46,537 bases of DNA from a virus (lineage: Duplodnaviria > Heunggongvirae > Uroviricota > Caudoviricetes). The stretch lies in the IMG/VR virus record IMGVR_UViG_2563366953_000003; one strand, given 5' to 3'. Numbering within the stretch: the stretch's first letter is position 1; every line of letters starts with the position of its first letter. Both the position numbers and the translations under genes were made by a program. The notes under the pieces are model-generated. The model was given only the letters and a program-made list of their open reading frames with translations, ran no database searches and was not told where the DNA came from. Below, in pieces: positions 1-32,340 of the stretch.

Positions 1-420
1 TTAAAACGCAGTTGGGTGAATGCCATATTCACCGTTTGAACCGTACCCTATGCGATACATCAAAGTACGATCTGTTGTCACCTTGCCCGCCTGCTCACTC
101 ATGCCACCACCACATACTCCTTTTGGCCACGCGCTGAAGACATGATCACCAATCGTTGGGTATACAACGACTTTCTGAGCTGTACCTAAATCTGCCACCT
201 CTTTACCATCAACATAAACACGGGAAAAGCACGCGCTCCCAAAGAAACCCGAATCACGCTTGATGATCACCTCTCCTGTCCCATCTCTTTTTTCGAGTAT
301 TGCGCTATTGATTACCTGTTTTTCTGGAACGGGAGTAGCCTGCTCGTTTGAGACTGGCTTGGTTGCACAACCAGCAAGCGCACACATAATCCCAAAGGCA
401 AGAATATTTTTAACGACCAT
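1..420 (-). CDS. Putative lipoprotein (cargo at end of tail operon)
   Basis: Signal peptide with lipobox LAGC (MVVKNILAFGIMCALAGCATKP). Start placed at the internal ATG at 420, which has a GGAG Shine-Dalgarno upstream; the track ORF extends to 468. Stop codon at 1-3. Confidence 0.55.
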   Translation of the reverse strand: MVVKNILAFGIMCALAGCATKPVSNEQATPVPEKQVINSAILEKRDGTGEVIIKRDSGFFGSACFSRVYVDGKEVADLGTAQKVVVYPTIGDHVFSAWPKGVCGGGMSEQAGKVTTDRTLMYRIGYGSNGEYGIHPTAF

Positions 421-448
421 GTATAAAAAACTCCAAAAATTATAATTG

Positions 449-2275
449 TCAGTACCTGACGATACCAACGTCCAATACCGGGAAATCTACGCACCAAAAC
501 CCCGCCGGCTTGCATGTTAAAATAACCCAAGCGGTGTTTGTAGTCGACGGCCAGTCCGGCAGTGTGTCGTATTTTTTATCGTCGCATGAGTCGCGATAGC
601 CGTATTCATTACGCAGTGGTTTTAATCCCGCGATCAGATCGGTAGCTCTCTGCTCGTTCCCTAGCGCACGTTCGAATAGTGCTACACCCGCTGTACCCTC
701 GGTCCACACGCCACGGCTATGGCCGCTGTATCCGTAGTCCGGGTGATACGGTGTATAACCGGTGCTCTCCAGTGTGCCGAACCGGAATCTTTCCATATAA
801 CGGCGGCATTTTTCCGCCAACTCCGGCGCGGCTTTTACTGCGAAAATCCCGCCCCAACTCGATTGATCTAGCGCTGCGGCGTTGTCCGGGCCGTCAATGT
901 GCACGCCCTGCCGGAATCGCCCCTCGCTCTCAATCCAGAATTTTTCCACGATATTTGCAGCCAGCGTGGTGGCTCGCAGTTCGTATCCGGTAAAATCGGT
1001 TAACCGTCCAACGAGTTCGAATAAAAAATAAATATCAACGTTGTGCTCGAGCGCGCACCAGGTCGCAACATAATTCGGATCAAATGATCCGTCCTCCAGA
1101 TATTTACCGTTGCCGCCCATGTATAAGCCGTGGCGCGGGTCGCCGCTGGCGTCAACCTTCAGACCGTCCAGCCAGGTTAGCCCGGCGTTTAATTTCGCGC
1201 GCGCTAACTCAGCGTTACTGCCGGTAGGGTATTTGCTCAGATAGAATGCCAGGGCGTACAACACCCACGCCGCGTTACCCGTGCGGTAATACTCGCGGGA
1301 GGACTGTGCGGACAGCCGGTTAACAAAAAATTTAATGCCGCCGTTTTCACCCACCAGGGCGCACAGACCCGTAACATAACGCTCTACCGCCTCGTGATTC
1401 TGCGCCATGAGTGCCAGCGTCGCGCACGCCTGATCATATGTGTAGCAACGGTCTTTCATGACGCTGACTACCTCGGGATCGGCGTCAGCGGGCATCCAGT
1501 AACTGCGAATACACAGCGGGTATTCCAGCGTAGTGATCCATTTACTATCTGCTACGCGCACCAATCTGAATTGTTTTGCACCAGCCCAGGAACGTTTAAA
1601 AGAAAACTTCCCGTCCGCTGTTAAATTTGTTTCGCCGTTAAAATATTCGCCTGTTGTGTAGGCGTACATTTGAATTTTATATTCAAGCGGGCTAGTAACG
1701 TCGCAAAATCCGTTTACCGGGCCAATATAGTTATAATTAATCGTCTCTGTGATAGTTATTGCAATATCCGGATCTAACACCTCCGGTTTTTCCAGCTCCA
1801 GCATTGCTGTTGTATTGACATTGATAATTTCGTCAAAATTCTCAAATCTGGCGCTCCCTGCCGCTGCCGTCGAAATCTGCGCAGCAGCAGCGGCGGCGGC
1901 GGCATTCTGCCTGGCCTCCGTTGCGGCGGCGCTGGCAACACTGGCAGCGGCTTGTGCTGTGGCAACGAGTTCCTGGATCTCCGCCAACGCAGCTGGCGTC
2001 AGTTCGTCTGCGCTAAAATTAGTCAAATAGTCGTTTAACGTGCCGTCAACACTGTCCGGGTTAACGTTAATCACGCCGAGATATGCCGCACTAGCAGTGA
2101 CAACGTAAACTCCGGGCTTCATATCAAATTTGTACTCACCCGCCGCGCCTGTTTCTTGCTCTACAACAGTGGTCATTACTACGCGTGAACTCGTGACCCG
2201 TGCTGTTAATACTAACTGAACGCCGACAACGGGCTCGCCGACCCCATTTGCGTATACACCCGATATTATTGCCAT
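449..2275 (-). CDS. Tail-associated protein: N-terminal beta-domain, Ala-rich linker, C-terminal aromatic-rich domain suggestive of a glycoside hydrolase
   Basis: 608-aa ORF starting 5 nt after the gpD-like stop (translationally coupled to the tail operon). Poly-Ala/Gln stretch AAAAAAAAQ; C-terminal motifs WVLYALAFY, ATWCALEHN, SSWGGIFA. The fold assignment is inference only. Confidence 0.45.
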   Translation of the reverse strand: MAIISGVYANGVGEPVVGVQLVLTARVTSSRVVMTTVVEQETGAAGEYKFDMKPGVYVVTASAAYLGVINVNPDSVDGTLNDYLTNFSADELTPAALAEIQELVATAQAAASVASAAATEARQNAAAAAAAAQISTAAAGSARFENFDEIINVNTTAMLELEKPEVLDPDIAITITETINYNYIGPVNGFCDVTSPLEYKIQMYAYTTGEYFNGETNLTADGKFSFKRSWAGAKQFRLVRVADSKWITTLEYPLCIRSYWMPADADPEVVSVMKDRCYTYDQACATLALMAQNHEAVERYVTGLCALVGENGGIKFFVNRLSAQSSREYYRTGNAAWVLYALAFYLSKYPTGSNAELARAKLNAGLTWLDGLKVDASGDPRHGLYMGGNGKYLEDGSFDPNYVATWCALEHNVDIYFLFELVGRLTDFTGYELRATTLAANIVEKFWIESEGRFRQGVHIDGPDNAAALDQSSWGGIFAVKAAPELAEKCRRYMERFRFGTLESTGYTPYHPDYGYSGHSRGVWTEGTAGVALFERALGNEQRATDLIAGLKPLRNEYGYRDSCDDKKYDTLPDWPSTTNTAWVILTCKPAGFWCVDFPVLDVGIVRY

Positions 2276-2280
2276 TTCAT

Positions 2281-3324
2281 TTACTCCAGCGACAGTCGCG
2301 CAGAGAATCCGTTTTCAGCCAGCGTCAGCGTCAACGTATTGATTGTCCAGTCTCGGTCCTCCTCTGTCCCGAATCCTTGTGTTGTGACTTTGCATTCTGC
2401 AGTCAGCGATACTAAATCGAGCGTCGCGGGCGTCGTGTAAGTCATGGAGAACTCTTTTTTAGCTGCACCGCCCTTGAGTCCTGGCGCAGCTTCTTTCGCT
2501 GCATCAAGCGACGGCTCCACTGCCGGCCACTCGATTACAGGATCGCCGCCACTGCCCGTACGCAATTCTTTGATCTGCCCCGTTGCTGTATCGTGATATT
2601 TGATCAAATACGTTGGCTCCGCATTTTCGCCACCTCCGCCACTATCACCGTTTTGTCCATTTCTCGAATAACCCCAGCTTGAGTTATCACGACGCGTGAG
2701 CGTGTAGTGCTGAAGCGGTGCTCCGCTAACAGATTCGCCCGCGCCGCGCGGCAGGAATATCCAGTACCCGCCCGCGGGTTTACTCACCGCATCGAATCTC
2801 GTTGCGAGCCGCGACATCAGGTGCATATCTGACTCGCCGACTTGATCGAGCTGCGTGATAATGTTGTCTGCAAACCGCTTTGATACGCGAGGTTTTAGCC
2901 CGTTATCGCTCGCTATTGTTGCAACGATATTGCTGACAGTGACGTCGCTCCAGGAGCGAGTTTTTTTGCTCTGAACTGTCGGAGAGCCTTTTGATGCGTT
3001 CATCGGAGCTGCTTTTGCTGTGAAATCAACTACCCGGGGTTCACCGCCACTGCTCGCACCATCAACGATGTATACACCCTTATCAATTATCTGATTACCG
3101 AAACCGAGCCCAATACTGATTTTTACTCCGCGGGCCGGAATTTTCAGAGTTTCAGAAACGATTGCTACGCGTAATTCGTCTGTCTGTTTACTCGAACCAC
3201 CATAATCTGTGAGCGTGATATTGATCAAACCTTTTCTTATTTTATCCGTGATGTTTTCATTATCAGCAGATATATAAAAATTGGGCTTCCATGCTTCCAC
3301 GCCAGTATTTACGTAATCACTCAT
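2281..3324 (-). CDS. Tail protein D (P2 gpD-like, late control D family)
   Basis: 347 aa. Conserved LTRRD motif and overall similarity to P2 gpD as recalled; sits after gpU and gpX as in P2-like and pyocin clusters. Confidence 0.85.
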   Translation of the reverse strand: MSDYVNTGVEAWKPNFYISADNENITDKIRKGLINITLTDYGGSSKQTDELRVAIVSETLKIPARGVKISIGLGFGNQIIDKGVYIVDGASSGGEPRVVDFTAKAAPMNASKGSPTVQSKKTRSWSDVTVSNIVATIASDNGLKPRVSKRFADNIITQLDQVGESDMHLMSRLATRFDAVSKPAGGYWIFLPRGAGESVSGAPLQHYTLTRRDNSSWGYSRNGQNGDSGGGGENAEPTYLIKYHDTATGQIKELRTGSGGDPVIEWPAVEPSLDAAKEAAPGLKGGAAKKEFSMTYTTPATLDLVSLTAECKVTTQGFGTEEDRDWTINTLTLTLAENGFSARLSLE

Positions 3325-3327
3325 TCA

Positions 3328-3552
3328 TCAATCCCATAATTGCGTTTCTTTTTTAGCCGGTTCGGGGTCGATTTCTGGTAAAACAATTTTTTCTCCTGCA
3401 CGAAACACGGCACACATATCCGTTACGCCGTAATTTAAAACTTGATATAACACGGTTTCTGTCGTTTTTGCTGTTCTCCCGTAGACAGCAAGGCAGATCT
3501 GATCGAGACGGTCACCGTCCCGTGTAGTGTATGTAATCATTTGGGGCCCCAT
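3328..3552 (-). CDS. Tail protein X (P2 gpX-like)
   Basis: 74 aa, located between gpU and gpD as in R-pyocin and P2-like tail clusters. Confidence 0.65.
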   Translation of the reverse strand: MGPQMITYTTRDGDRLDQICLAVYGRTAKTTETVLYQVLNYGVTDMCAVFRAGEKIVLPEIDPEPAKKETQLWD

Positions 3553-3712
3553 TAATTAAAAGGATTTCATAATGAGAATTAATTTTAGTAGTCGGAGAGG
3601 TATTAGTATTTCGGCGTCAAAAAAAATACCATCAGGTTGTTTTACATTTATGCTCGTAGTTTTTTTATTATTTTTATACTTGTTAAGTGCTCTGGTAGCG
3701 CTTGATTTTGTA

Positions 3713-4141
3713 TTAATCTAGCGAAGCTCCATAATATTCGAGCGTGAGTGAAAAGTCCTGCGATTTTGGGGTCCCTCCTTTCAGAAAACTGTTTTGCGTT
3801 TCTGTTAACTCCCTGATAACCCAGTACCCCTTCACCTCCCCGGTCCCCAGCACCAGTTGCTGGGGTTCTCCCGAGTTCCCCAGTGCCCGCAAATCTGTTA
3901 ACAAGCCAATGCCGCACCCATCAAGGAATAACGCGTTTATTTTCCCATCGATCGTGATTGTGGGGTTCGGTCGTCCGGTTATCTGCAATGCGTCGTTTTT
4001 CCCGAATCGTGTTTGCTGAGCCCAGCGCCAGGCGTCACTACGTTGCAGTTTGTTGTACGCTACTGTTGATATAGCAAAAATGAAATCACCCAAACCGAGC
4101 ATGATATCCTCAGCACCGTTTATTGCATCACTCATTGTCAC
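3713..4141 (-). CDS. Tail protein U (P2 gpU-like)
   Basis: 142 aa with the RW...RFGKNDALQ pattern resembling P2 gpU; overlaps the tape-measure stop by 4 nt. Confidence 0.75.
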   Translation of the reverse strand: MTMSDAINGAEDIMLGLGDFIFAISTVAYNKLQRSDAWRWAQQTRFGKNDALQITGRPNPTITIDGKINALFLDGCGIGLLTDLRALGNSGEPQQLVLGTGEVKGYWVIRELTETQNSFLKGGTPKSQDFSLTLEYYGASLD

Positions 4142-5778
4142 CCCGCCGCCGCTGGTTTATCAAACATTGCACCACGATTGTACGAACTCGCAACCTGTCT
4201 CAGCCCGTCGAGCACACCCGATGCGGCAGCCTGCTGTGTTGATTGTGGATCTGCTGCTCCGATAATATTGATTTCAATTTTATTGTTTTGCTCTGGCGCT
4301 GGAGTTGCGACTGCCTGTCTCAGCGCGTCAATATTCAACGTTGCTGAGTTTTGTGATTCAGGCGTTGAGTCTTTATTTATTAATCCAGTAAACGGGTTAG
4401 CAAACGAGAGCATTGATTCAGCCTGTGATTTTGCACGAGCAAGACGTTCAGGGTGTCGCATATTATCCACGGCTTCGTCGGCTTTTGCTTTTGCTACATT
4501 ATCTGCTGCCAGTCCTGGGTTCGGTGAATATTTACCACCACTATCCATGAATTCCTGATACGCTTTATTATATTCTTCGTTATATACGCGCTGTTCCTCG
4601 TCTGTTTTCTCGTCCAGGATTAACCACTCCAGTTTTTTTACGACTGCCCAAATTATTTTTCCGAATTTAACGCACGCCTCGCCAAAACTGACTATCCCCT
4701 CCCAAAGTTTTTTCATATTTTCTGGCTTAACCCATTCTTTAATACTATCAACAACCCCCCCTTGATTCTCTTTAAACCAGGATGCCAGCCCGTCTCGCAT
4801 AGCGTCAAACGTCGGCGCGAGTTCCCCTCCGATTTTCCCGAGAGTATCTGCCAGCCCCGATGTGATTGCCCCCCACAGATTCGTGACGGATACGTGCGCG
4901 CGCGCTGCACCCTCAGCCCCTTCTTTCGTTAGCAGGTTTGATTTTTGAGCGTCCGACATAGTCTGCTCCCAGCTTTTACCAGTCGCCCGCATATAGGTCA
5001 TTATTTTATTAGCCTCTCCCCCCATTAGCTGATCAGCCAGACTCGCCGCCTGTTGATCATCCTTCATTTCAGAGATACGCCGCATAACTTCATTGAACTG
5101 TTTTTCTCGATCCCATTTAGCCATCCGTTTTTTTGTCAAGCCAATTTGAAACAACATGGGGTTCAGGTTTTTTTCGTTTCCGATTTCGCCGATTTTATTT
5201 GTAAGTTCTTCTGACAGGTCACCAACATTTTCGCCGTTCAGGCCCGCAGCTTTACCAATATTTTCCCACGCAGCGTATTTTTCGATGCCAACACCGTAGG
5301 ACTTCGCCAGACCGAGTTTTTCTGACGTCTCTGCATTCATTGCCAGCGCGCCAGCAGTCGCGCCGCCGAGCAGACCCACGGCCCCCAGCGTCCCCCATTT
5401 GATACCCCGTCCCGTGGCCCTCACCGCACCTGCGGTGGCTCGTCCGCCCCATTTTGCAGCACCTTTTGCGCGCCCCGTCCACTTCTCCAGCCGCTGTTTT
5501 TTAGCAAGCTGGGTATTCAGCGCCTCCTGGTCCTGCGTTGTCGCCTTTATCCGACGGTCCAGCTTTTGATACTGAGCAGATAAATCAGAGACATCTTTAC
5601 CTGCCAGTTTCATTGCTGCGATTTTGTCTTTTAATTTATCCTGGCTTTTCGTTAATTTTCCGACAGTAGACGACGTCTGCCGAATGGCGTCGTTGAGTTC
5701 TGTTGTACCGCGCCGAAACGACGGGTCTATTCGCCCCCCGAATACAACCTGCGTTTTAAAGTTTTGAGAAATAGCCAT
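4138..5778 (-). CDS. Tail tape measure protein (P2 gpT-like)
   Basis: 546 aa, coiled-coil and Gly/Ala-rich composition, positioned between the E chaperone and gpU. Confidence 0.8.
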   Translation of the reverse strand: MAISQNFKTQVVFGGRIDPSFRRGTTELNDAIRQTSSTVGKLTKSQDKLKDKIAAMKLAGKDVSDLSAQYQKLDRRIKATTQDQEALNTQLAKKQRLEKWTGRAKGAAKWGGRATAGAVRATGRGIKWGTLGAVGLLGGATAGALAMNAETSEKLGLAKSYGVGIEKYAAWENIGKAAGLNGENVGDLSEELTNKIGEIGNEKNLNPMLFQIGLTKKRMAKWDREKQFNEVMRRISEMKDDQQAASLADQLMGGEANKIMTYMRATGKSWEQTMSDAQKSNLLTKEGAEGAARAHVSVTNLWGAITSGLADTLGKIGGELAPTFDAMRDGLASWFKENQGGVVDSIKEWVKPENMKKLWEGIVSFGEACVKFGKIIWAVVKKLEWLILDEKTDEEQRVYNEEYNKAYQEFMDSGGKYSPNPGLAADNVAKAKADEAVDNMRHPERLARAKSQAESMLSFANPFTGLINKDSTPESQNSATLNIDALRQAVATPAPEQNNKIEINIIGAADPQSTQQAAASGVLDGLRQVASSYNRGAMFDKPAAAG

Positions 5779-5886
5779 CGGTTTTCATGACCTCGTTTAC
5801 ATAGAAATTAAAAACCCGATACGGCAGGTCCATTTGCGTATCAGGCGGGATGGCAAGTTTTTTCGCAATAAACGGAATCAGAATAA

Positions 5887-6168
5887 CTATATCTGATGTC
5901 GGTCTTTCGGGTGCTTTACCAGTTCGTTAAACGCGGCCTCCAGTTGATCGTAATCGCACGCGGGGAGCGCATATAAATCCTCTCTTTCCAGATTTGCCAG
6001 GCGCGCCAGCATTGTCGCTGTCCGCTCTTCAAGACCGCTTTTATCGTTACTGAACATAATGCGGTCGCGTAATTTTGGTTCGCGAATAGTAATTGTATCG
6101 CGGCTCTCGCCCTTAATAATAAATGGTCGAGAGAGCGTAATAGTCATACTGTCTAATAATGATTCCAT
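5887..6168 (-). CDS. Tail assembly chaperone (P2 gpE-like)
   Basis: 93-aa ORF between tail tube and tape measure. The E' frameshift product expected in P2-like phages was not located. Confidence 0.65.
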   Translation of the reverse strand: MESLLDSMTITLSRPFIIKGESRDTITIREPKLRDRIMFSNDKSGLEERTATMLARLANLEREDLYALPACDYDQLEAAFNELVKHPKDRHQI

Positions 6169-6180
6169 TTTATTTACCTT

Positions 6181-6693
6181 TTAATATACATGAAGGATTC
6201 GAGCGACGCCCGCAAGAACATCAACACCATTGATAACGCGTTTCATTTTTGCAGGATGAATTTCGTAAATAATTCGTCCATTTTGAACTCGTTTATAATA
6301 GCTCGGCGCAATCGTTACTGATTGCCCCACTGACGATTTAGAATCAGTCCCCTGAGCGTCATCAGTGATTGCCGTAATAAGTCCCTCGTAGGTATCAATA
6401 CGCTCAAAATTTATTCCATAGGAGTCTGTGTACGCACTACGAATTTCAAACCGCGTCTTGACTCCCGGTATTAACCCGAAATAGCTCATAACACCAGAAT
6501 CAGAACCCGAAACTTTAAAACTGGCTGACATTTTCTCCATACCGCCATCTAATGTGATGGCTGTATCCATCGCGCCTGTTTTAAACTCGTCCTCGATTAT
6601 TTTCATATCGACAGGAGTATATTCAGTACAATTTAAAACCCGTTCGCCCTGCACGAATAGCGCAAACGCGCGGTAAGCGTTGCTGTCTGACAT
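6181..6693 (-). CDS. Tail tube protein (P2 gpFII-like)
   Basis: 170 aa immediately downstream of the sheath gene. Confidence 0.8.
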   Translation of the reverse strand: MSDSNAYRAFALFVQGERVLNCTEYTPVDMKIIEDEFKTGAMDTAITLDGGMEKMSASFKVSGSDSGVMSYFGLIPGVKTRFEIRSAYTDSYGINFERIDTYEGLITAITDDAQGTDSKSSVGQSVTIAPSYYKRVQNGRIIYEIHPAKMKRVINGVDVLAGVARILHVY

Positions 6694-6710
6694 ATTTAAT
6701 CTCCGAATTA

Positions 6711-8210
6711 TCAGGCTGTTTCTTTAAAAAGGGAGGCCAGTGCTTCAACTGTATAGTCATTATTAATGCGGTACATTAACGTAATTGTTTGTGCCGGAGA
6801 TTTCGGGCCAAAATCAACATTAATATAAAGATTACCCGCAGCCAGACTTTCTTTTGTATTCAACTCACCGTCTAACCACGCCCGACCTCCGTTAATCGCG
6901 CCCCGCTCCTCTAATTTATGCAGATATGCGTTTATTGACTCTACGACGTCTGTTCCGAGGTGCAGATCTATCGGGCGATCAATAAAATCGGTCATCATTG
7001 CCCGGGCTATAGAATCCTCAATTACATCAGCTGTTCGACGAACGCATTCAAACGACCACTGCGAATCCAGACTGCACAGATAGTTACCCCAGTGTCTGAA
7101 CCCGTCATAGCGAATGATGGTGCTGACCTGACTAGCGTTCAGCAGGTTCGCTGTGCAGTTTGTCTCACCAATAATAAAATCGTCGACCTGTTCAAGCCCT
7201 GTAACTCCGTAGATATTCTGGTTCGATTTGCTCCACCAAAACCCCTTTTCGTTATCTATCCTGGCTCGTAAACCAGCAGCAATGGCTGAATATGGTCTTG
7301 ATTGCCCGCCTACGTCGCTAGTTGAATAAACACGGGGACGTAACAATTCTACGCGCGCTCCGAAATTTTGCCGACGATTTACAACATTTGCGGGTGTAGC
7401 TAAATGCGGAGAGTCAATATATCCAACGCCGCGAAGTTTATTTGCGACCACCTCAATTTGCGCTGCGACCTCATCGCGGGCGCTGTAATCCGGCGCTATA
7501 ATAATTCGTGGTGTAACTCCGTTAATTTGTGCTGACGTCAACAGCGCGTTAATTCCGGCAATAACATTTTCGTTCATATCAGAGTCGTCGCTACTCTCGG
7601 CAACGCGAACGGCAACGATTAGCGCATCTGTCTGATTTAAAATATCAGAAATTGCGGTAGGCAGGGTCCCGTATTTCCCGAGCAGCGCGGCTTTTTTCTG
7701 ACTGCCTGCAATTAATACTGGTGAATTAATTGGGAATGCATCATCAGTTCCGCCAGATAAATTTGTCGGCGGGAGGCCGAATACTGTGCCGGTGCCAGAA
7801 TGATCGCCGCCAAATGTTACATTTATCCATTCTCCGTCTGATTTACCCTCTCTGTATCCCTGATTCTGATCATACATTTTGCTGGGAGTCATTCCCAGCT
7901 CCGTAATCATCGTTAATTTTTTTGTTCCGTCGGGCAGCGTGCTGTATCCCGGAGTGCATGTTGCGCCATCAACCGTCATATCTACAATTTCAACAACCCA
8001 TTTATTACCGTCGCTGCCTGGTGATACCGTTGAAAATTCAACGAGATTATCAGCCAGTGATGAACCCCACATTAATGAAGCTCTCGTAGCCTCTGCGACG
8101 TTCGTTGCAGTACCAACAATCCCGATAACTGAAATATCTACCGTGCTGATTTCTTTTGTGCCGTCGTCGTATTCTAGCGTGCGGGGGCCGTGCAAAAAAT
8201 TAGTGCTCAT
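6711..8210 (-). CDS. Contractile tail sheath protein (P2 gpFI-like)
   Basis: 499 aa; N-terminal ISTVDISVIGIVGTA and C-terminal GFRHWGN and AGNLYINVDFGP motifs match the P2 sheath as recalled. Confidence 0.9.
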   Translation of the reverse strand: MSTNFLHGPRTLEYDDGTKEISTVDISVIGIVGTATNVAEATRASLMWGSSLADNLVEFSTVSPGSDGNKWVVEIVDMTVDGATCTPGYSTLPDGTKKLTMITELGMTPSKMYDQNQGYREGKSDGEWINVTFGGDHSGTGTVFGLPPTNLSGGTDDAFPINSPVLIAGSQKKAALLGKYGTLPTAISDILNQTDALIVAVRVAESSDDSDMNENVIAGINALLTSAQINGVTPRIIIAPDYSARDEVAAQIEVVANKLRGVGYIDSPHLATPANVVNRRQNFGARVELLRPRVYSTSDVGGQSRPYSAIAAGLRARIDNEKGFWWSKSNQNIYGVTGLEQVDDFIIGETNCTANLLNASQVSTIIRYDGFRHWGNYLCSLDSQWSFECVRRTADVIEDSIARAMMTDFIDRPIDLHLGTDVVESINAYLHKLEERGAINGGRAWLDGELNTKESLAAGNLYINVDFGPKSPAQTITLMYRINNDYTVEALASLFKETA

Positions 8211-8215
8211 TTATT

Positions 8216-8449
8216 TTACTCTCCTGATTCGATTATAATTGGAGCCACATATTCAGCAACATCACCAAATTCACCGCAAGCGGCGCGCTCGTATAACTCT
8301 CGGCCATATAATGTGGAGTCTGTTTTAGATGCAGTAAATAAAATAGCATTACCGATCCCTTGTATGTCACAGACAATATCAATACTGTTATTCGATGCGC
8401 TGGAATAGCGCTGTGTTTTTATATTTGAAAAGTTATCAATTGTTATCAT
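8216..8449 (-). CDS. Small protein in the tail-fiber assembly (P2 gpG) position; function unknown
   Basis: 77-aa ORF between the fiber and sheath genes; assigned by synteny only. Confidence 0.35.
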   Translation of the reverse strand: MITIDNFSNIKTQRYSSASNNSIDIVCDIQGIGNAILFTASKTDSTLYGRELYERAACGEFGDVAEYVAPIIIESGE

Positions 8450-8454
8450 TTGTT

Positions 8455-9417
8455 TTACGCTATCCTCGTGAAATTAGTTGCAAATTTGCCAGTATAGATA
8501 TCTTCACCAGCCCCGGAAGATGGCTCATAGCTCTGGGGGATCAGTCCGCACAATTGCCAAATACCAGGCAATGGCTCACTTCCAAAAGTTAGCGTAAGCG
8601 TGGCTTCGCTCATAGAGCCGACACCTCCGGTATATTTCCATTGAATGCATGCAGGGGAAATTATCGAACCTTGTAACTGTTCACCAGGTTTATAGTGCAT
8701 TACAGTAGAGTTATCGAATGTAAATCCAGCATAAACAACTGAGCCGACAGCTGCAAACGCAGGCACCGCCGGTGCAGGGTCATCGTTAGCATCAATTAAA
8801 TCATCAACGTCTTCTTTGGTGTAATAATTATCAAGATTTACGCCGATATTTTCTCGCGCCGTTTTTTGCGCCACCGTGCCTTTATCTTTAATTTCAGATA
8901 AATTTTTACCTATCTGCAAATATCGTTTATCGGCATCTGCCTGGCTCATTCCGCTACTGTTATCAATAACAACGTTAACAGTAGACGTGCTGGACACCGC
9001 GAGAGTGTATTTATACGTGATTGAAATCAGCGCGCCGTTGCTGTCCGTAGGTTTTAAAATATCCGGTGAACGTGCAACTGAGTACAGTTCCCCTTTATCT
9101 GTTAATATCCCCACCTCGCGGATGGTATAACCGCCGGTTTCCGGCGGTACGTACAGTGTAAAAATGACCTGATTACCGCTATTTTCTGACGATTTAATAT
9201 CTCCGCGATACGTCTCGTGAATTAATGCCGTTCTGGCCGGGTCTGGTGTTACGTCGTCATTTCCGTTCGCGTCACCAATAACGAATTTATTTAGCACTAC
9301 CGGCACGCCTGACGCCAGCGCCGCAGCTTCTAATTGCGCGCCACGGTCTGTCAGCACCGCATAAACTTGGCTCGCGTTAGCTTTCAGATTTGATTTTAAT
9401 TTAGCCATTGGGTCCAA
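8455..9417 (-). CDS. Tail fiber protein (P2 gpH-like N-terminal domain, short C-terminal receptor-binding region)
   Basis: 320 aa; motifs LIHETYR and TLYVPPETGGYTIREVGILTDKGELYSVAR parallel the P2 gpH N-terminus (LIHEVWR, ELVIPPEVGGFWMRELGLYDDAG). Confidence 0.75.
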   Translation of the reverse strand: MDPMAKLKSNLKANASQVYAVLTDRGAQLEAAALASGVPVVLNKFVIGDANGNDDVTPDPARTALIHETYRGDIKSSENSGNQVIFTLYVPPETGGYTIREVGILTDKGELYSVARSPDILKPTDSNGALISITYKYTLAVSSTSTVNVVIDNSSGMSQADADKRYLQIGKNLSEIKDKGTVAQKTARENIGVNLDNYYTKEDVDDLIDANDDPAPAVPAFAAVGSVVYAGFTFDNSTVMHYKPGEQLQGSIISPACIQWKYTGGVGSMSEATLTLTFGSEPLPGIWQLCGLIPQSYEPSSGAGEDIYTGKFATNFTRIA

Positions 9418-10027
9418 TCTCCACTAACAGACTCACGATTGGCGAGCCTGATATATATAATCCGCCATTTAATTTCACGCCACCATCACCATCTGCCGGT
9501 ATATTTACGCCTATTTTTGTGTAAGGAGTTCCAGCTATAAAAAATTCCCCTTCCACACCTGTTTCGAAATTTATTTCTTTTAATAAAGAGCGACAATTTT
9601 TTGCATCAAATATTTGTGCAATAAATGTATTCAATAGCTCTAAATCTAACCCCATACTTTTTAGCAGATATATTTTAATTGCGAATGTATACGGGTCGTC
9701 CCTGGGCGCGGCTTCGAACCACTCTCTCATTTTGCTCTCAAATCCAACTGTTAATAACGCTCGTTCAACAGCTCCACGCGTTCCGCGGTGCTTGTTCTGC
9801 CACGCAGCTGCTTTAATAATTTCGCGTTTTTGCTGATCGCTCCAGTCGGGGTTCCAGTAGGTGACGGCGTATTCCCACGCCAGCCACGGCAACAGATTTG
9901 CAGGACACAAATCGGGATTTTTAATAATTCGAATATCGCCAGGCAGATCGCCAACGTGAGATAAAACAGATTCCAGCGCTCTCTCGGGGGTTATTGCGTT
10001 CGGAGGCAGTACGCTTTGACTTGTCAT
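9401..10027 (-). CDS. Baseplate assembly protein I (P2 gpI-like)
   Basis: 208 aa with the PANLLPWLAWEYAV motif typical of gpI; located between J and H. Confidence 0.8.
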   Translation of the reverse strand: MTSQSVLPPNAITPERALESVLSHVGDLPGDIRIIKNPDLCPANLLPWLAWEYAVTYWNPDWSDQQKREIIKAAAWQNKHRGTRGAVERALLTVGFESKMREWFEAAPRDDPYTFAIKIYLLKSMGLDLELLNTFIAQIFDAKNCRSLLKEINFETGVEGEFFIAGTPYTKIGVNIPADGDGGVKLNGGLYISGSPIVSLLVEIGPNG

Positions 10028-27848: not shown

Positions 27849-28337
27849 ATGGCTACCAACCCAAGAGAGCACGCCCGGCGAGTGCTGGACACGTTCTGGT
27901 GCGGGCGTGGTTTCCCTGTTGATCCAGCGAAAATTGCTCACGACATGGGATTAGATGTTTTTATTACCGATCTTCCTGGGAAAGTTTCTGGCGCACTGAT
28001 TAAACAAAAAGATCAAGATCCAGCGATCTTTCTAAACAGTGATGACAACAAAGTTCGTCAACGTTTTTCATGTGGGCATGAGTTGGGGCATTACATCGCC
28101 CGGCAAGCATCGCATAGCGATGAATATGAGTACGTTGATTTACGTGGCGAAACCGCAAGCGCCGGAACGCATCCTGATGAAATTTTTGCGAACAAGTTCG
28201 CAGCAGAACTTCTGATGCCGGTTGATGAGGTCAGAAAACTACACGCTGACGGCCAACCAAGTTATATAATGGCGCATTATTTTGGCGTATCTGACGATGC
28301 GATGACTTATCGTTTAAAGAACTTGAGGTTGGGGTAA
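27849..28337 (+). CDS. ImmA/IrrE-family zinc metallopeptidase (M78-like)
   Basis: 162 aa with HEXXH motif (SCGHELGHYI) in the typical ImmA context; GGAGG RBS 6 nt upstream; opposite strand to flanking phage genes. Confidence 0.7.
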   Translation: MATNPREHARRVLDTFWCGRGFPVDPAKIAHDMGLDVFITDLPGKVSGALIKQKDQDPAIFLNSDDNKVRQRFSCGHELGHYIARQASHSDEYEYVDLRGETASAGTHPDEIFANKFAAELLMPVDEVRKLHADGQPSYIMAHYFGVSDDAMTYRLKNLRLG

Positions 28338-28346
28338 CGCTTTAGA

Positions 28347-28952
28347 ATGCCATCGGATGACGATTTTAACAGCCGTTTCAAACAGGAAGTTGCACGCCGA
28401 CTGAAGGATTCCCTCAACCTACACCGTCAGTTAGCAGAAGAGGTTGAGCCGGAGGAGGATGAAACTCCGGTTCAGTCTCCTGATGAAACTTCACCTCAGC
28501 CAAAGATTTCGCACGCCCCCAAAAAACCGTCTGTCCGTATTCACGGAATAGCCAGAAAAAGAGCTGCCGAAGCTCGCAAAATGGCTGTAGCTGCGTCAAT
28601 CAAAAGAATTCCAACTGCTACACTATCTCAACAAGTCACCCGTACTGAGAGTAAAATCTTGACCGAGTTCACATCAGTGAAACAGGTGAATTCACTTGAT
28701 ACTGAGCATGAGCGCAAACAACTCAACAACAAAGATTTTGAAGCTGAAATCGATCTAAAAAAACGCTATGGCAAATGGTTCCTGATTATCCTTGCTTGCC
28801 AGCTTTTAATAATGAATGGTGTATTTTTTGCCACTGGTGCTGAATGGCTTGTATTTAAAGACTTAACGCTCCAGTTGTACATGGGCGGTACTTTGACAGA
28901 GGTATTCGGCCTCGTGCTGGTCGTGACAAAATACCTTTTTAAACGCAAGTAA
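28347..28952 (+). CDS. Membrane protein: charged low-complexity N-terminal region, two C-terminal TM helices
   Basis: 201 aa, 9 nt downstream of the ImmA-like gene (operon). Hydrophobic segments WFLIILACQLLIMNGVFFATGA and LTEVFGLVLVVTKYLF. Confidence 0.5.
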   Translation: MPSDDDFNSRFKQEVARRLKDSLNLHRQLAEEVEPEEDETPVQSPDETSPQPKISHAPKKPSVRIHGIARKRAAEARKMAVAASIKRIPTATLSQQVTRTESKILTEFTSVKQVNSLDTEHERKQLNNKDFEAEIDLKKRYGKWFLIILACQLLIMNGVFFATGAEWLVFKDLTLQLYMGGTLTEVFGLVLVVTKYLFKRK

Positions 28953-28977
28953 CTCTCTCGGTCCAACAGTCTTTCGG

Positions 28978-29010
28978 AGGCCCTGATCAAAGGGCCTTGA
29001 TAAATTAGCT
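28978..29010 (+). terminator. Weak terminator-like hairpin after the ImmA-membrane operon
   Basis: AGGCCCT-GATCAA-AGGGCCT followed by an interrupted T-tract. Confidence 0.3.
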
Positions 29011-29554
29011 GTGCGTTGAAAACAGATAGTTATTCCCATTAGTTCCAACGTAATACACATCAAAAAAATCACCATTCTTTTGCTCTAACGTCAACACCTA
29101 CCCTTAAAAGAATAATTCTCTAAGAATGAGAGAATGTTGTGTGTATTAGATAAGATATGAGCTGACACATCTATGGCGTGGAGCCGAATTTAATTTGACA
29201 GTCCACTTTGTGCCAGGAACGGACCTTAAGAAACTATCCGTAATCTTCAGGCCGATTTGTATGTCTATACCTTACAGAACTGCCAGGAGTTATTGATATT
29301 TGATAGTCGGTGAATAGCTGGCGACAATCCCCCCATATATTATATAGTAAAGATAAATTACAACTAAAAAATCATAAAAAATATCATCCATGCCTGTATA
29401 GTTTTTTAGAAGGGCTGTTTCATATGAAATGAATGCCAAAAAAATTTAGATCATGTTTTTATTTCCACATCTTTTGAAGATTTTATTTTCAATATTATCT
29501 ATCTCTTTCCTCACCCATGAATTTTCTCCAGCAGAGATAAATTAAAAAATCTCA

Positions 29555-30907
29555 CTACGCATCTATTTCGGCATAGAACATTCGCAAAATAAATTTTCTA
29601 AAGTGCTGGTGGGATTTAAGGAAATTGACGCCTAAGTATGGCATGTCTCCATGAAGAGGGTGGTTTTCCAATCCGTTATTCTTACAAAAATCATAATCTA
29701 ATTTAAGAATGTCAGTATAGAGATGTCGTATTAAACCTGTAGACCTAATAGCGAAGTTATTACAGAAAACATCCTCAAGTAGAGACCTTTGATAGATTTC
29801 CCAATTCATAAAGCCATATTCAACGTGGACGTATTTCCCATCTGTATTTCTAGTGGTGAGTTCAATTACCTGCTTACCTATACGATATAATTGAGAGATC
29901 CATGTACAATGTAAACCACTTAGGACATCAATATTAGCCTCATATAGTTCTCCTTCACCTAGTTTACCAATTAATTCAGATATGTGAGGAGTGTAAGAAT
30001 TTGGGTCTGGAATATCATCATAGTTGTCGTCTTCTGTGGATAAATGCTGGACACTCCCGACAGCATAAGGATTCATGCCAACTAGTACTAATGAATTCGT
30101 AAAAGGTAATGCCTGAGATAATTCAGGCCATAACTGAGAGCAATAAGTAAAACCATGAACTCCAGATTCTTCCATATACTGAGCTGCAAGGCAGGAAATG
30201 TTATCAAATTGACTAACAAATGAATGTAAAAGTTCTTCTCCTCTAGCTGCATCCCATCGCTCTGCGTCATACTCCCAGGATAATTTACAGACACTAAAAC
30301 TATCTTCTCTAAATGCAATATTTGAGAAAGTCGCTAACTCTGTTTGGTCTGGAATCCATAATTCAAGTTTAAGAGAGGTAATATCAAGAGGATCAGAGAA
30401 TGTTGGAATTAAAGTAATGATATCCCTATTGTCAAATATTAAACTTTGGATGACAGCATCACGTGCTATTCTGGTTTCCATTGGTGATATTAAAATATAC
30501 ACACTGTCATTTTTCGTCATGGATGGAAATAATGTTGTCATATGGTTTGAATATGCTAACAATTCAGTGAATGCTTGCCTTTCAGTTTGTTCACTTTTTT
30601 TAAGCTCTATGACAGCAAGCCCAGTATCATCACAGAATATAGCCAAAAAATCGGCTCTAATTGTTGAGTTTGAATTTTGTTCTAAAGGAACTTCGCAGCC
30701 GATAAATTCCAGTCCATAAAGCTTAGAGTGAAGATTGGATAGTTTACTATTTATTCTGTTTTTTATTAGCAGTTGTGCTGTTACATCAGAGAGATCTTCG
30801 TTGAATTCAAGTACTTCAAGACCTGCAGGTTCAATAAGCAGTTCGGGAAAATTGTTCCTATTTTCCCATATGTAATTTTGTATTTCCTTTTCTGTGAATT
30901 TAATCAT
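29555..30907 (-). CDS. Hypothetical protein with N-terminal PD-(D/E)xK-like nuclease signature (AT-rich island cargo)
   Basis: 450 aa; IRADFLAIFCDDTGLAVIELKKSEQ has the D...(D/E)xK pattern; strongly AT-rich codon usage unlike the flanking phage genes. Confidence 0.5.
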   Translation of the reverse strand: MIKFTEKEIQNYIWENRNNFPELLIEPAGLEVLEFNEDLSDVTAQLLIKNRINSKLSNLHSKLYGLEFIGCEVPLEQNSNSTIRADFLAIFCDDTGLAVIELKKSEQTERQAFTELLAYSNHMTTLFPSMTKNDSVYILISPMETRIARDAVIQSLIFDNRDIITLIPTFSDPLDITSLKLELWIPDQTELATFSNIAFREDSFSVCKLSWEYDAERWDAARGEELLHSFVSQFDNISCLAAQYMEESGVHGFTYCSQLWPELSQALPFTNSLVLVGMNPYAVGSVQHLSTEDDNYDDIPDPNSYTPHISELIGKLGEGELYEANIDVLSGLHCTWISQLYRIGKQVIELTTRNTDGKYVHVEYGFMNWEIYQRSLLEDVFCNNFAIRSTGLIRHLYTDILKLDYDFCKNNGLENHPLHGDMPYLGVNFLKSHQHFRKFILRMFYAEIDA

Positions 30908-31440
30908 TAATCAACCCTTATTATTACTTATATAATTGCCACCATCTTGATGGTTATAAAATTATGTACAATTAATTATATTTTTTAAAGTTACGGCCTT
31001 CAGTGTTCCCTAATGTACTGTTTCATATGTAATGATATCTATACTGTCTCATCTAGCAAGGTTACAAACAAAATTTTTCTTCCGGAAATGTGATCATGGC
31101 GATAAATCAACATGAGAGTTTATCTACATTGTACATAGTTAAAGCATAAGCAGGTGTGAGTAAGAAACTAGAGCATACTGAAGATTCGCTTGCTCACTGG
31201 AATTACACAATTTTACTGAGTGGATGGCGTTGCATCGACCCGTTGAACTCACAGCCATGAGCGGACATGTTTTACAGCGGAATAAATTCAGCATAGTTAG
31301 TGGATTTACACGGAGGATTAGTTTTTGAGAAATCTTGATAAAATTGTAGAGCTTGTTAATATGAAAACAAGAAATTAAACTAACAGTCAAATAAAGAAGC
31401 TCAAACACATCCCCTACTTAATTGAAAAGGATTATTAGCT

Positions 31441-32340
31441 ATGATTGCCCCACTTATTAGTAACTTACAGAAAGATATTGCGCTACTTCAGCTTTATATC
31501 GAACAACGCAAACAGACTGGCTTTCATGACATGGAAAGAATGATTGAGTCATTGACCATTTATATGTTTCGCGCACTGAAAATGGGGGAACTGGAAAACA
31601 TGAATCAGATTAAAGTTAACTTTCCCGCCATTGATTTAGCTGACAATAAAAACATGATAGCAGTTCAAGTTACAACGAAAGCAACCCCGGCAAAAATTAA
31701 AAAAACAATCGCAGCCTTTGAAAAAGAAAATAAATCAGGAAAGAGTCTAAAAGACATATACCCTTTTTTATATATTTTTGGGTTTTGTAAAAGCTCAAAA
31801 TGCTCAGTTCCAAGTTATTGTAAAGTAATCGACCCCAGCTATTTTGTAAATGAACTTTGCGATAAAGCAGATGAAAATATGATCCTTGATATGCTTGATG
31901 CCATTCATCGCCATCAGGATTATACATTATTATCGCCATGGGATGATAGAGATTCACTCGAAATAATACTCAATGTTATTAATCGCAATGCTATTAAACA
32001 CAGGATGAGTTGCGAAGGAAGCATATCTGATATGCTTGCCGGTTTAAAAGAAATTAACGAAATAATTACAAAAGGTACAATCCAACGTAAGCAACGTTCA
32101 AAATCGATATCTGATTTCAAGGATCAAAGCATGGTTAAATTCCTGAGAGGTGTAATGGATGATCTGTCTGTTATTCAAGCCATAGTGAACAAATCAAAAG
32201 TTAACCAAAGTGATATGGTTTGTATTAGCTCTGAAGATATGATTAACATTGATAATTTAAAAGATAAAATTGCAAACGATTCATCAGAGATTGCAAGGCT
32301 AAATAATATTGATATAATACTAAAAATTGTTGAATTATAA
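31441..32340 (+). CDS. Hypothetical protein (AT-rich island cargo)
   Basis: 299 aa, AT-rich, divergent from the 450-aa gene across a roughly 530-bp AT-rich intergenic region. Confidence 0.45.
   Translation: MIAPLISNLQKDIALLQLYIEQRKQTGFHDMERMIESLTIYMFRALKMGELENMNQIKVNFPAIDLADNKNMIAVQVTTKATPAKIKKTIAAFEKENKSGKSLKDIYPFLYIFGFCKSSKCSVPSYCKVIDPSYFVNELCDKADENMILDMLDAIHRHQDYTLLSPWDDRDSLEIILNVINRNAIKHRMSCEGSISDMLAGLKEINEIITKGTIQRKQRSKSISDFKDQSMVKFLRGVMDDLSVIQAIVNKSKVNQSDMVCISSEDMINIDNLKDKIANDSSEIARLNNIDIILKIVEL

What the first reader, a model, noticed from the sequence alone, without database searches (positions are those of the whole stretch)
449..2275. 608-aa protein translationally coupled to the end of the P2-type tail operon, with a possible glycoside-hydrolase-like C-terminal domain
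In P2 the tail operon ends at gene D; here a large extra gene begins 5 nt after the gpD-like stop. It has a small N-terminal beta-rich domain, a poly-Ala linker and an aromatic-rich C-terminal half resembling carbohydrate-active enzymes. This could be an accessory tail spike or depolymerase that modifies host range, or a secreted or lysogenic-conversion enzyme. The adjacent lipoprotein (1-420) may be functionally linked.
Basis: inference. Interest (0 to 1): 0.55.

Follow-up and report, generated by a model that had tools for sequence, protein, structure and literature searches.

The report
Enzyme-headed accessory fibre on contractile-tail prophage
The 608-aa gene after the tail-hub gene of this E. 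coli prophage is an optional second tail fibre that joins a lambda-type attachment domain to a predicted sugar-cleaving barrel domain; it is a variant of a known kind of phage host-recognition protein, not a new kind of system.

Summary

The host element is a mosaic prophage: lambda-like head and replication, P2/R-pyocin-like contractile tail, and its own baseplate fibre. The slot after D behaves as a modular receptor-binding locus. The first 104 residues are 88-99% conserved while C-termini are swapped. A second lineage (D 87% identical) carries a 77% homologue in the same position, with dN/dS 0.06-0.14. About 95% of related E. coli prophages carry a 166-nt deletion scar instead.

Best reading: a dispensable, virion-borne accessory fibre or spike with a probable polysaccharide-hydrolase head. 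Where it docks on a contractile tail, and what it cleaves, are unknown. RefSeq and PHROGs already call it a tail fibre.

The parts
449..2275 (-). Accessory tail-fibre/spike gene, 608 aa plus stop
   Evidence: ORF. Matches phrog_13714 (E 3e-215), phrog_7032 and phrog_4128, all 'tail fiber protein'. RefSeq WP_096984663 is named 'prophage tail fiber N-terminal domain-containing protein'. dN/dS is 0.06-0.14 against the D-linked homologue in L017.
2003..2275 (-). Residues 1-91: lambda-Stf-type N-terminal collar/anchor domain (beta-sandwich)
   Evidence: PF08400 at E 5e-25, 88.5 bits against a cut-off of 26.6. phmmer to 9e7m_Ta gives E 6.6e-9. Foldseek to 9e7m_Ta gives TMt 0.76, rmsd 2.7 and 36% identity. 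A weaker fold match is to XM1 gp40 NTD, 7kjk_A3, TMt 0.57.
1847..1996 (-). Residues 94-143: Ala-rich helix, predicted trimeric coiled-coil stalk/linker; the recombination breakpoint lies at about residue 104
   Evidence: AF2 predicts a helix at 94-138 with low pLDDT. The segment is 50% Ala. A 30-nt in-frame length polymorphism occurs in the GCN tract relative to L009. Identity to slot-mates stops at residue 104.
1496..1846 (-). Residues 144-260: beta-sandwich domain preceding the barrel
   Evidence: AF2 strands 173-251 with pLDDT >90. This module is closest to the L017 homologue (dS 0.34), whereas the barrel is not.
452..1495 (-). Residues 261-608: (alpha/alpha)6-barrel, six-hairpin glycosidase-like domain with conserved acidic/aromatic residues
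2284..2287 (-). GGAG Shine-Dalgarno for the fibre gene, inside the last codons of gpD
   Evidence: The minus-strand sequence reads ...CTGGAGTAAATGAAATGGC.
2281..3324 (-). gpD-like baseplate hub gene, last core gene of the contractile-tail operon (context)
   Evidence: phrog_52 at E 1e-92. PF05954 is recorded for the 87%-identical homologue. RefSeq names it 'late control protein' or 'VgrG/Pvc8 family'.
1..420 (-). Lipoprotein gene at the prophage end (neighbour; not obligately linked)
   Evidence: phrog_890 at E 4e-52 with a lipobox. It is 100% identical at the protein level in the siphovirus-type prophage of JNE151685. It is retained in fibre-less relatives.
8455..9417 (-). The phage's own primary baseplate fibre, with a P2-H-like tail-collar N-terminus (context: shows the 608-aa protein is a second receptor-binding protein)
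   Evidence: phrog_5075, phrog_327 and phrog_1780 'tail collar fiber protein'. It is flanked by gpI-, gpJ- and gpW-like genes.

Best explanation
The gene encodes a non-essential second receptor-binding protein of a contractile-tailed, lambda/P2-mosaic temperate phage of E. coli.

Proposed assembly. Three chains probably trimerise through the Ala-rich helix (residues 94-143). The three N-terminal Stf-type beta-sandwich domains (1-91) plug the fibre onto the virion. Each chain ends in a beta-sandwich plus an (alpha/alpha)6-barrel head.

Proposed activity. The head binds a host surface polysaccharide and most likely hydrolyses it, through a GH15-clan-like acid/base pocket. Candidate residues are D281, E410, D414, D470 and E526, lined with Trp and Tyr. 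This would speed or widen adsorption before the baseplate fibres and spike engage.

Shown here:
- the coding gene, under purifying selection;
- the anchor-domain identity;
- the barrel fold;
- modular C-terminal swapping in this slot;
- repeated loss of the gene.

Inferred, not shown:
- trimer formation;
- virion incorporation;
- the docking site (baseplate periphery, or the neck as for XM1 gp40);
- catalysis and substrate.
For: Anchor. PF08400 scores 88.5 bits. The lambda StfN collar structure 9e7m matches by sequence and by fold (TMt 0.76). In Ur-lambda, StfN residues 1-91, a flexible linker and a coiled coil build the side fibre (PMC12617516).

Receptor-binding-protein behaviour.
- The same C-domain is fused to at least five different phage anchors: PF08400, PF12571, PF18668, PF25613 and PF03406.
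- It also occurs with T4 gp5 and GP46 domains.
- It occurs as a second fibre after H and its chaperone in a P2/HP1-like module.

Slot behaviour.
- 24 of 454 E. coli genomes with this D gene carry a PF08400 gene 5 nt after D.
- Their first 104 residues are 88-99% identical, but the C-termini are unrelated.
- A second lineage (D 87% identical) has a 609-aa homologue in the same place, found in 113 index blocks.
- dN/dS is 0.06-0.14 in every domain.

Dispensability. Fibre-less relatives share one 166-nt scar made of remnants of the 5' and 3' ends of the gene. This parallels the loss of stf in laboratory lambda (PMC12617516).

Distinct docking site. The phage's primary fibre uses a tail-collar-type anchor. 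The D-linked StfN subtype is at most 40% identical to every StfN in 50,697 sequenced phages, and all of those are lambdoid.
Against: - There is no experimental or proteomic evidence that the protein is in virions.
- Lambda StfN docks on gpV/gpM of a non-contractile tail, and this phage has neither. In a contractile tail the equivalent tube surface is covered by the sheath.
- No curated glycoside-hydrolase family is matched at sequence level.
- The same fold also houses epimerases/isomerases and terpene cyclases, so hydrolysis is not proven.
- The coiled coil has low model confidence (pLDDT 38-60).
- Most relatives do without the gene.
Confidence: 0.72

Rival explanations
1. The protein is a virion fibre, but the barrel is a non-catalytic, lectin-like receptor-binding domain rather than an enzyme.
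For: No curated glycoside-hydrolase family is matched. Many fibre tips only bind their receptor. The alpha/alpha toroid fold is about 1% or less of predicted phage depolymerases (PMC11326577, PMC12491483).
Against: A set of carboxylates (D281, E410, D414, D470, E526), together with His, Arg and Trp, is invariant or nearly so across members only 25-30% identical. That is the pattern expected of a catalytic pocket. The best structural neighbours are active polysaccharide-acting hydrolases and transferases.
Confidence: 0.15
2. The gene is a recombination relic acquired from lambdoid prophages. It is expressed or silent but not assembled on the contractile tail, and so has no function in this phage.
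For: The barrel and lipoprotein are nearly identical to a siphovirus-type prophage at the same chromosomal site (dS 0.18; lipoprotein 100% identical). About 95% of relatives have deleted the gene. Lambda's docking partners gpV and gpM are absent.
Against: - The N-terminal anchor is a distinct subtype found only next to this gpD lineage. It is 77-100% identical within that group but only 32-34% identical to the sipho-borne partners of the same C-domain, and at most 40% identical to all sequenced phages.
- The arrangement, with its 5-nt spacer and Shine-Dalgarno, persists in two lineages whose D genes are 13% diverged.
- Purifying selection acts on the anchor itself (dN/dS 0.14).
- Three different intact C-termini occupy the slot.
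Confidence: 0.08
3. The protein is a free (non-virion) enzyme: a lysogenic-conversion, secreted or lysis-associated glycosidase or epimerase that modifies the host's own surface glycan.
Against: The N-terminus is not signal-peptide-like (MAIISGVYANGVGEP...). The protein has a fibre anchor and stalk. It is translationally coupled to the late tail operon, with no promoter-like site upstream. Homologous C-domains always sit in tail proteins.
Confidence: 0.05

Closest known systems
Bacteriophage (Ur-)lambda side tail fibre Stf (PDB 9e7m/9mgh; PF08400)
   Same: The N-terminal collar domain of about 90 residues is homologous (E 6.6e-9; 36% identity; TMt 0.76). It is followed by a linker and a helical trimeric stalk. 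Both are non-essential accessory fibres that are readily lost.
   Different: Lambda Stf docks on gpV/gpM of a non-contractile tail, has a gp37-like OmpC-binding tip, and needs the Tfa chaperone. This protein follows gpD of a contractile tail, ends in an (alpha/alpha)6 barrel, and has no tfa gene downstream.
Vibrio myophage XM1 gp40 'collar spike' (PDB 7kjk; PMC10457771)
   Same: Both belong to contractile-tailed phages that carry a second set of spikes. The architecture is the same: an Ig-like/beta-sandwich NTD of about 100 residues, a trimeric coiled coil, then an enzyme-like C-terminus. There is a fold match to the NTD (Foldseek E 7e-5, TMt 0.57, 20% identity).
   Different: The similarity is weak. 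The gp40 C-terminus is tailspike-like, not an alpha/alpha barrel. Neck attachment is demonstrated for gp40 but is only a hypothesis here.
Six-hairpin (alpha/alpha)6 glycoside hydrolases: GH15-type dextran dextrinase/glucodextranase/glucoamylase, MmpH endo-mannanase (7qsj), GH76
   Different: Sequence identity is only 8-15%. There is no Pfam, NCBIfam or PDB sequence-level match. The catalytic residues and substrate are not established. The same fold also occurs in epimerases.
Phage tailspike depolymerases (P22/Sf6/K1F-type)
   Same: Both have the modular layout 'N-terminal virion anchor plus C-terminal polysaccharide-active domain'. Both show horizontal swapping of the C-terminal module between phage types.
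   Different: Classical tailspikes are intertwined trimeric beta-helices or beta-propellers. Here each chain carries its own globular alpha/alpha barrel, a fold that makes up about 1% or less of predicted phage depolymerases.

Membership tests
Lambda Stf-type side tail fibres (PF08400 'Prophage tail fibre N-terminal') | N-terminal domain matches PF08400 above the gathering score | tested here: met
   88.5 bits against a cut-off of 26.6, residues 3-126.
Lambda Stf-type side tail fibres (PF08400 'Prophage tail fibre N-terminal') | N-domain has the fold of the solved StfN collar domain | tested here: met
   Foldseek to 9e7m_Ta gives TMt 0.76, rmsd 2.7 and 36% identity. phmmer gives E 6.6e-9.
Lambda Stf-type side tail fibres (PF08400 'Prophage tail fibre N-terminal') | Encoded in a siphoviral tail module after J/lom, docking on gpV/gpM | tested here: not met
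   The gene follows gpD of a sheath/tube/U/X/D contractile-tail operon. No J, V or M homologues lie in the tail region.
Lambda Stf-type side tail fibres (PF08400 'Prophage tail fibre N-terminal') | gp37-like fibrous receptor-binding tip with a downstream Tfa chaperone | tested here: not met
   The C-terminus is a beta-sandwich plus an (alpha/alpha)6 barrel. The next gene is a lipoprotein, not Caudo_TAP.
Six-hairpin (alpha/alpha)6 glycoside hydrolases (GH15-clan-like) | (alpha/alpha)6 barrel fold | tested here: met
Six-hairpin (alpha/alpha)6 glycoside hydrolases (GH15-clan-like) | Sequence membership in a curated glycoside-hydrolase family | tested here: not met
   No Pfam or NCBIfam hit for the query. 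No PDB hit even with 29- and 61-sequence profiles. Only sub-threshold hits appear, in 4, 3, 1 and 1 of 61 relatives. CAZy/dbCAN was not available.
Six-hairpin (alpha/alpha)6 glycoside hydrolases (GH15-clan-like) | Catalytic acid/base carboxylates positioned in the barrel funnel | tested here: inconclusive
   D281, E410, D414, D470 and E526 are invariant or at least 90% conserved, and lie at inner-helix N-termini.
Six-hairpin (alpha/alpha)6 glycoside hydrolases (GH15-clan-like) | Glycosidic-bond cleavage activity | not testable with these tools
   This needs a biochemical assay.
Virion-associated phage depolymerase / tailspike | N-terminal particle-anchor domain fused to a polysaccharide-active domain, with modular exchange | tested here: met
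   The same C-domain occurs on at least five anchor types. Breakpoints lie at about residue 104 and about residue 260.
Virion-associated phage depolymerase / tailspike | Presence in the virion | not testable with these tools
   No proteomics or EM data were found for this prophage family.
XM1 gp40-type neck 'collar spike' of myophages | Ig-like NTD, long trimeric coiled coil and spike-like C-terminus on a contractile-tailed phage | tested here: inconclusive
   The architecture is parallel. The NTD fold match is weak (7kjk_A3: E 7e-5, TMt 0.57, 20% identity). The description of gp40 is from PMC10457771.
XM1 gp40-type neck 'collar spike' of myophages | Attachment to head-completion and tail-terminator proteins at the neck | not testable with these tools
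   This needs cryo-EM or complex prediction.

The most novel reading that the evidence does not exclude
A diverged lambda-Stf collar domain has been re-targeted to a contractile tail. It would dock at the neck, as XM1 gp40 does, or on the baseplate rim. The phage would then carry two independent adsorption devices.

The head of the accessory fibre would be the founding, still uncharacterised member of a new glycoside-hydrolase family with about 550 clusters at 50% identity. Members are found in phage tail proteins from Enterobacteria to Microbacterium and Thermus phages. The family is fairly conserved (50-68% identity across genera), which suggests it cleaves a relatively conserved enterobacterial glycan, such as colanic acid, ECA or LPS core, rather than a hypervariable O-antigen.
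Probability: 0.3. Interest if true: 0.6.

Novelty: new variant of a known kind. Interest (0 to 1): 0.42.

Why it matters
Receptor-binding proteins set phage host range and are the parts that phage engineers swap. This locus matters in three ways.

1. It shows a lambda-type side-fibre anchor operating, apparently under selection, in a contractile-tailed phage. That raises a concrete structural question: where does a StfN collar dock when the tube is sheathed?

2. It points to an uncharacterised six-hairpin, glycosidase-like family that is used by phages across phyla but is absent from Pfam and the PDB. That makes it a candidate new depolymerase class for capsule, LPS or biofilm work.

3. It gives a natural series for testing what an accessory fibre contributes: the intact gene, three alternative heads, and a shared deletion scar.

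None of this overturns current understanding. It extends the known modular logic of phage fibres.

Tried and rejected
Sequence searches that gave nothing for the C-domain:
- Pfam, NCBIfam and PDB searches, even with profiles of 29 and 61 sequences.
- Only sub-threshold glycoside-hydrolase hints appeared.

Searches with the 104-aa N-domain:
- The search for related loci in genome contigs found nothing.
- The third homologous-protein search returned only fragments of the same protein. The distribution of the D-linked StfN subtype outside E. coli therefore remains unknown.
- The genome-contig scan with gpD found only one fibre-less Escherichia whittamii locus.

Limits of the tools:
- Model coordinates are not exposed to the scripting sandbox. 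I could not superpose the catalytic residues on GH15 or MmpH, or measure pocket geometry.

Promoter and terminator scan:
- The numbers of sites found were at or below the shuffle expectation. I draw no conclusion about independent transcription of the lipoprotein.

Ideas rejected:
- 'The gene is an insertion into a P2-type operon'. The fibre-less majority carries remnants of both ends of the gene, so loss, not gain, explains the polymorphism.
- 'The lipoprotein is a partner of the fibre'. The co-occurrence data do not support it.
Full report
**1. Observation**

The window carries a 608-aa ORF on the minus strand at 449..2275. It starts with an ATG 5 nt after the TAA of a 347-aa gene at 2281..3324. 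A GGAG lies 8 nt upstream of the ATG, inside the last codons of that gene; the minus strand reads ...CTGGAGTAAATGAAATGGC.

The upstream gene is gpD-like. It matches phrog_52 at E 1e-92, and PF05954 is recorded for its 87%-identical homologue. Further upstream lie the following:
- gpX-like and gpU-like genes;
- a 546-aa tape-measure-position protein;
- a tail assembly chaperone, tube and sheath;
- gpI-, gpJ- and gpW-like baseplate genes;
- a 320-aa tail-collar-type fibre at 8455..9417.

With X between U and D, the gene order is that of R-pyocin/phiCTX rather than P2 itself; that comparison rests on my own knowledge.

**2. Source of the window**

The window is an E. coli prophage. Positions 1-3400 are 99.8% identical to strain GF43, where RefSeq names the protein 'prophage tail fiber N-terminal domain-containing protein'. 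An IMG/VR contig is 99.9% identical.

The phage is a mosaic:
- lambda-like terminase, portal, protease and capsid;
- lambdoid O-like initiator and DnaB-like helicase;
- an integrase at the far end of the window;
- a contractile tail.

**3. Anatomy of the protein**

*N-terminal anchor.* Residues 3-126 match PF08400 at 88.5 bits against a cut-off of 26.6. Residues 4-85 match the solved collar domain of the Ur-lambda side tail fibre, PDB 9e7m/9mgh (E 6.6e-9; Foldseek TMt 0.76, 36% identity). In Ur-lambda, twelve StfN domains (residues 1-91) form a collar contacting gpV and gpM. Flexible linkers then lead to four trimeric coiled-coil fibres (PMC12617516).

*Model.* An AlphaFold2 model built on 29 homologues has mean pLDDT 88.5. 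It shows four parts:
- an N-terminal beta domain;
- a low-confidence helix at 94-138, in a segment that is 50% Ala;
- a beta-sandwich at about 144-255;
- an (alpha/alpha)6 barrel at about 265-600, with pLDDT mostly above 90.

Foldseek agrees.

*No sequence-level family.* No Pfam, NCBIfam or PDB sequence match covers residues 144-608, even with profiles. Among 61 distant relatives, the only weak Pfam hints are to six-hairpin glycoside hydrolases: GH63-like in 4, GH94 in 3, GH88 in 1 and trehalase in 1.

*Size and conservation of the family.* An exhaustive HMMER scan of 1.84 billion cluster representatives finds 547 relatives at E<=1e-3. Across members only 25-30% identical, the invariant or nearly invariant residues are Y280, D281, R331, G333, W406, E410, H411, D414, W447, D464, D470, W474, W524, E526 and W583. 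These residues sit at the N-terminal ends of alternate barrel helices 279, 332, 409, 469, 525 and 578. That is where six-hairpin glycosidases form their funnel-shaped active site, by established knowledge of the fold. I could not superpose coordinates, so the assignment of catalytic residues is an inference.

**4. Behaviour of the C-domain elsewhere**

The C-domain is a promiscuous phage tail module. It is fused to:
- PF08400 anchors;
- P2-H-type tail-collar anchors (PF12571);
- CBA120-type tailspike N-domains (PF18668);
- PF25613 and fibre repeats (PF03406);
- in distant members, T4 gp5 and GP46 domains.

It occurs at 58% identity in the 348-kb phage ph0011 and in the lambdoid phage phiSTEC1575-Stx2k, where it follows J and lom. 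At 25-33% identity it occurs in Microbacterium phage 'minor tail proteins' and Thermus phage proteins. In one P2/HP1-like module it is a second fibre after H and its chaperone, mounted on a tail-collar anchor.

The alpha/alpha toroid is a recognised but rare fold among predicted phage depolymerases. It accounts for about 1% in INPHARED and under 1% in Klebsiella prophages (PMC11326577, PMC12491483). In BFVD only one full-length structural analogue turned up.

**5. The slot after gpD**

Of 454 complete E. coli genomes carrying this D gene, 24 have a PF08400 gene directly after it. Residues 1-104 are 88-99% identical among them, but the remainder is unrelated. Examples are a 336-aa form in E24377A and E62 and a 315-aa form in ETEC1738. 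This is the signature of an exchangeable receptor-binding head on a fixed anchor.

A second prophage lineage (D 87% identical, different att site) has a 609-aa homologue, 77% identical. It lies in exactly the same position with the same 5-nt spacer, and is found in 113 index blocks. Between the two lineages, dN/dS is 0.14 for the anchor, 0.06 for the linker, 0.09 for the sandwich and 0.09 for the barrel.

Synonymous distances reveal mosaic breakpoints near residues 104 and 260:
- The linker and sandwich are closest to the second myoviral lineage.
- The barrel and the downstream lipoprotein are nearly identical (dS 0.18; lipoprotein 100% identical) to a siphovirus-type prophage at the same chromosomal site in strain JNE151685.
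- In that prophage the barrel sits on a 915-aa protein whose StfN is only 32% identical to ours.

The D-linked StfN subtype is at most 40% identical to any StfN in 50,697 sequenced phages, and all of those are lambdoid. The anchor type therefore tracks the tail type, while the head moves freely.

**6. Loss, not gain**

About 95% of related prophages lack the gene. This includes the induced phages vB_EcoM-720R5 and its relatives and an E. whittamii prophage. Their 166-nt D-lipoprotein spacer aligns to window 2203-2247 (codons ~10-25) and to window ~427-548 (the last ~33 codons plus the spacer). The alignment scores are 25 and 29, against shuffle maxima of 12 and 14. The same scar is present in all fibre-less loci examined.

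The fibre gene is therefore ancestral in this slot and was removed by one deletion that spread. This parallels the loss of stf in laboratory lambda.

**7. The lipoprotein**

The lipoprotein (phrog_890) does not track the fibre:
- It persists in fibre-less relatives.
- It is reduced to a 30-codon remnant in the 336-aa lineage.
- It is absent next to the same fibre type in the P0002 lineage and in phiSTEC1575-Stx2k.

It looks like an independent prophage-end gene. The promoter-like site upstream of it (468->439) is not above chance.

**8. Mechanism and open point**

The best-supported model is an optional trimeric accessory fibre. Its StfN-type domains plug it onto the particle, and each of its three heads carries a probable polysaccharide-hydrolase pocket.

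The unresolved step is docking. Lambda's partners gpV and gpM are absent, and the tube of a contractile tail is sheathed. Two sites are plausible:
- the baseplate rim;
- the neck, by analogy with Vibrio myophage XM1.

In XM1, six gp40 trimers attach to the head-completion and tail-terminator proteins. Each gp40 has an Ig-like NTD of about 100 residues, a 100-residue coiled coil and a tailspike-like C-terminus (PMC10457771). That NTD gave a weak fold match to our N-domain. The phage's primary fibre uses a different, tail-collar anchor, which argues that the two fibres use different sockets.

**9. Verdict**

The 'secreted/lysogenic-conversion enzyme' and 'lipoprotein partner' ideas are not supported.

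The protein is already labelled a tail fibre in RefSeq and PHROGs, and its building logic is well known. What is new is the combination: a lambda-type anchor on a contractile-tailed phage, together with an uncharacterised six-hairpin family as the head. Hence 'new variant of a known kind', with moderate interest.

Noticed in passing
window 1901-1923: The GCN-repeat (poly-Ala) tract of the fibre linker is length-polymorphic. The otherwise 99.9%-identical IMG/VR contig L009 has a 30-nt in-frame deletion here, giving 598 instead of 608 aa. This may reflect slippage that tunes stalk length.
   Followed up: partly
window ~7525-9420: The 3' end of the sheath gene, a 77-aa ORF (8216..8449) and the primary tail fibre (8455..9417) are not shared with strain GF43. 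Positions 1-7525 are 98.4% identical between the two. The primary fibre module has therefore also been swapped between near-identical prophages.
   Followed up: partly
L002 1558-1723; L008, L011, L015 6045-6210: All fibre-less relatives, including an Escherichia whittamii prophage, share the same 166-nt scar, made of the 5' and 3' remnants of the fibre gene. This points to one ancestral deletion rather than repeated independent losses.
   Followed up: yes
window 439-468 (-): A promoter-like TTGGTA-18-TATAAT (10 of 12 matches) and a 9-bp hairpin overlap the fibre stop codon, upstream of the lipoprotein gene. This would fit moron-like independent expression, but the number of sites in the region is not above the shuffle expectation.
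   Followed up: no
window 1-420 (-) and L005 6001-6420: The prophage-end lipoprotein (phrog_890, no Pfam family) is 100% identical at the protein level in a siphovirus-type prophage integrated at the same zinT/yodB site. Its function is unknown; superinfection exclusion is a guess.
   Followed up: partly
window 27849-32340: A cargo-like region lies in the early part of the prophage. It holds an IrrE/M78-peptidase-like protein (27849..28337, +), a 450-aa protein with no Pfam family (29555..30907, -) and an SMEK_N-domain protein (31441..32340, +). This may be a defence or accessory module.
   Followed up: no
L019 3472-3714 (-); E24377A locus L006 6635-6835: Relatives carry a small Imm_superinfect (PF14373) gene on the opposite strand between gpU and gpX. 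The window has no homologue by tblastn.
   Followed up: yes
L022/L023 5001-6827: The commonest 608-aa homologue (P0019, 60% identical, 445 index blocks) sits after a 447-aa fibre and a Caudo_TAP chaperone. The tail module there is of unclear type: it has a transglycosylase-like 691-aa protein and no J or D. It lies next to uspF-ompN-ydbK, so the StfN+barrel architecture is used as a last-gene second fibre in several tail types.
   Followed up: partly
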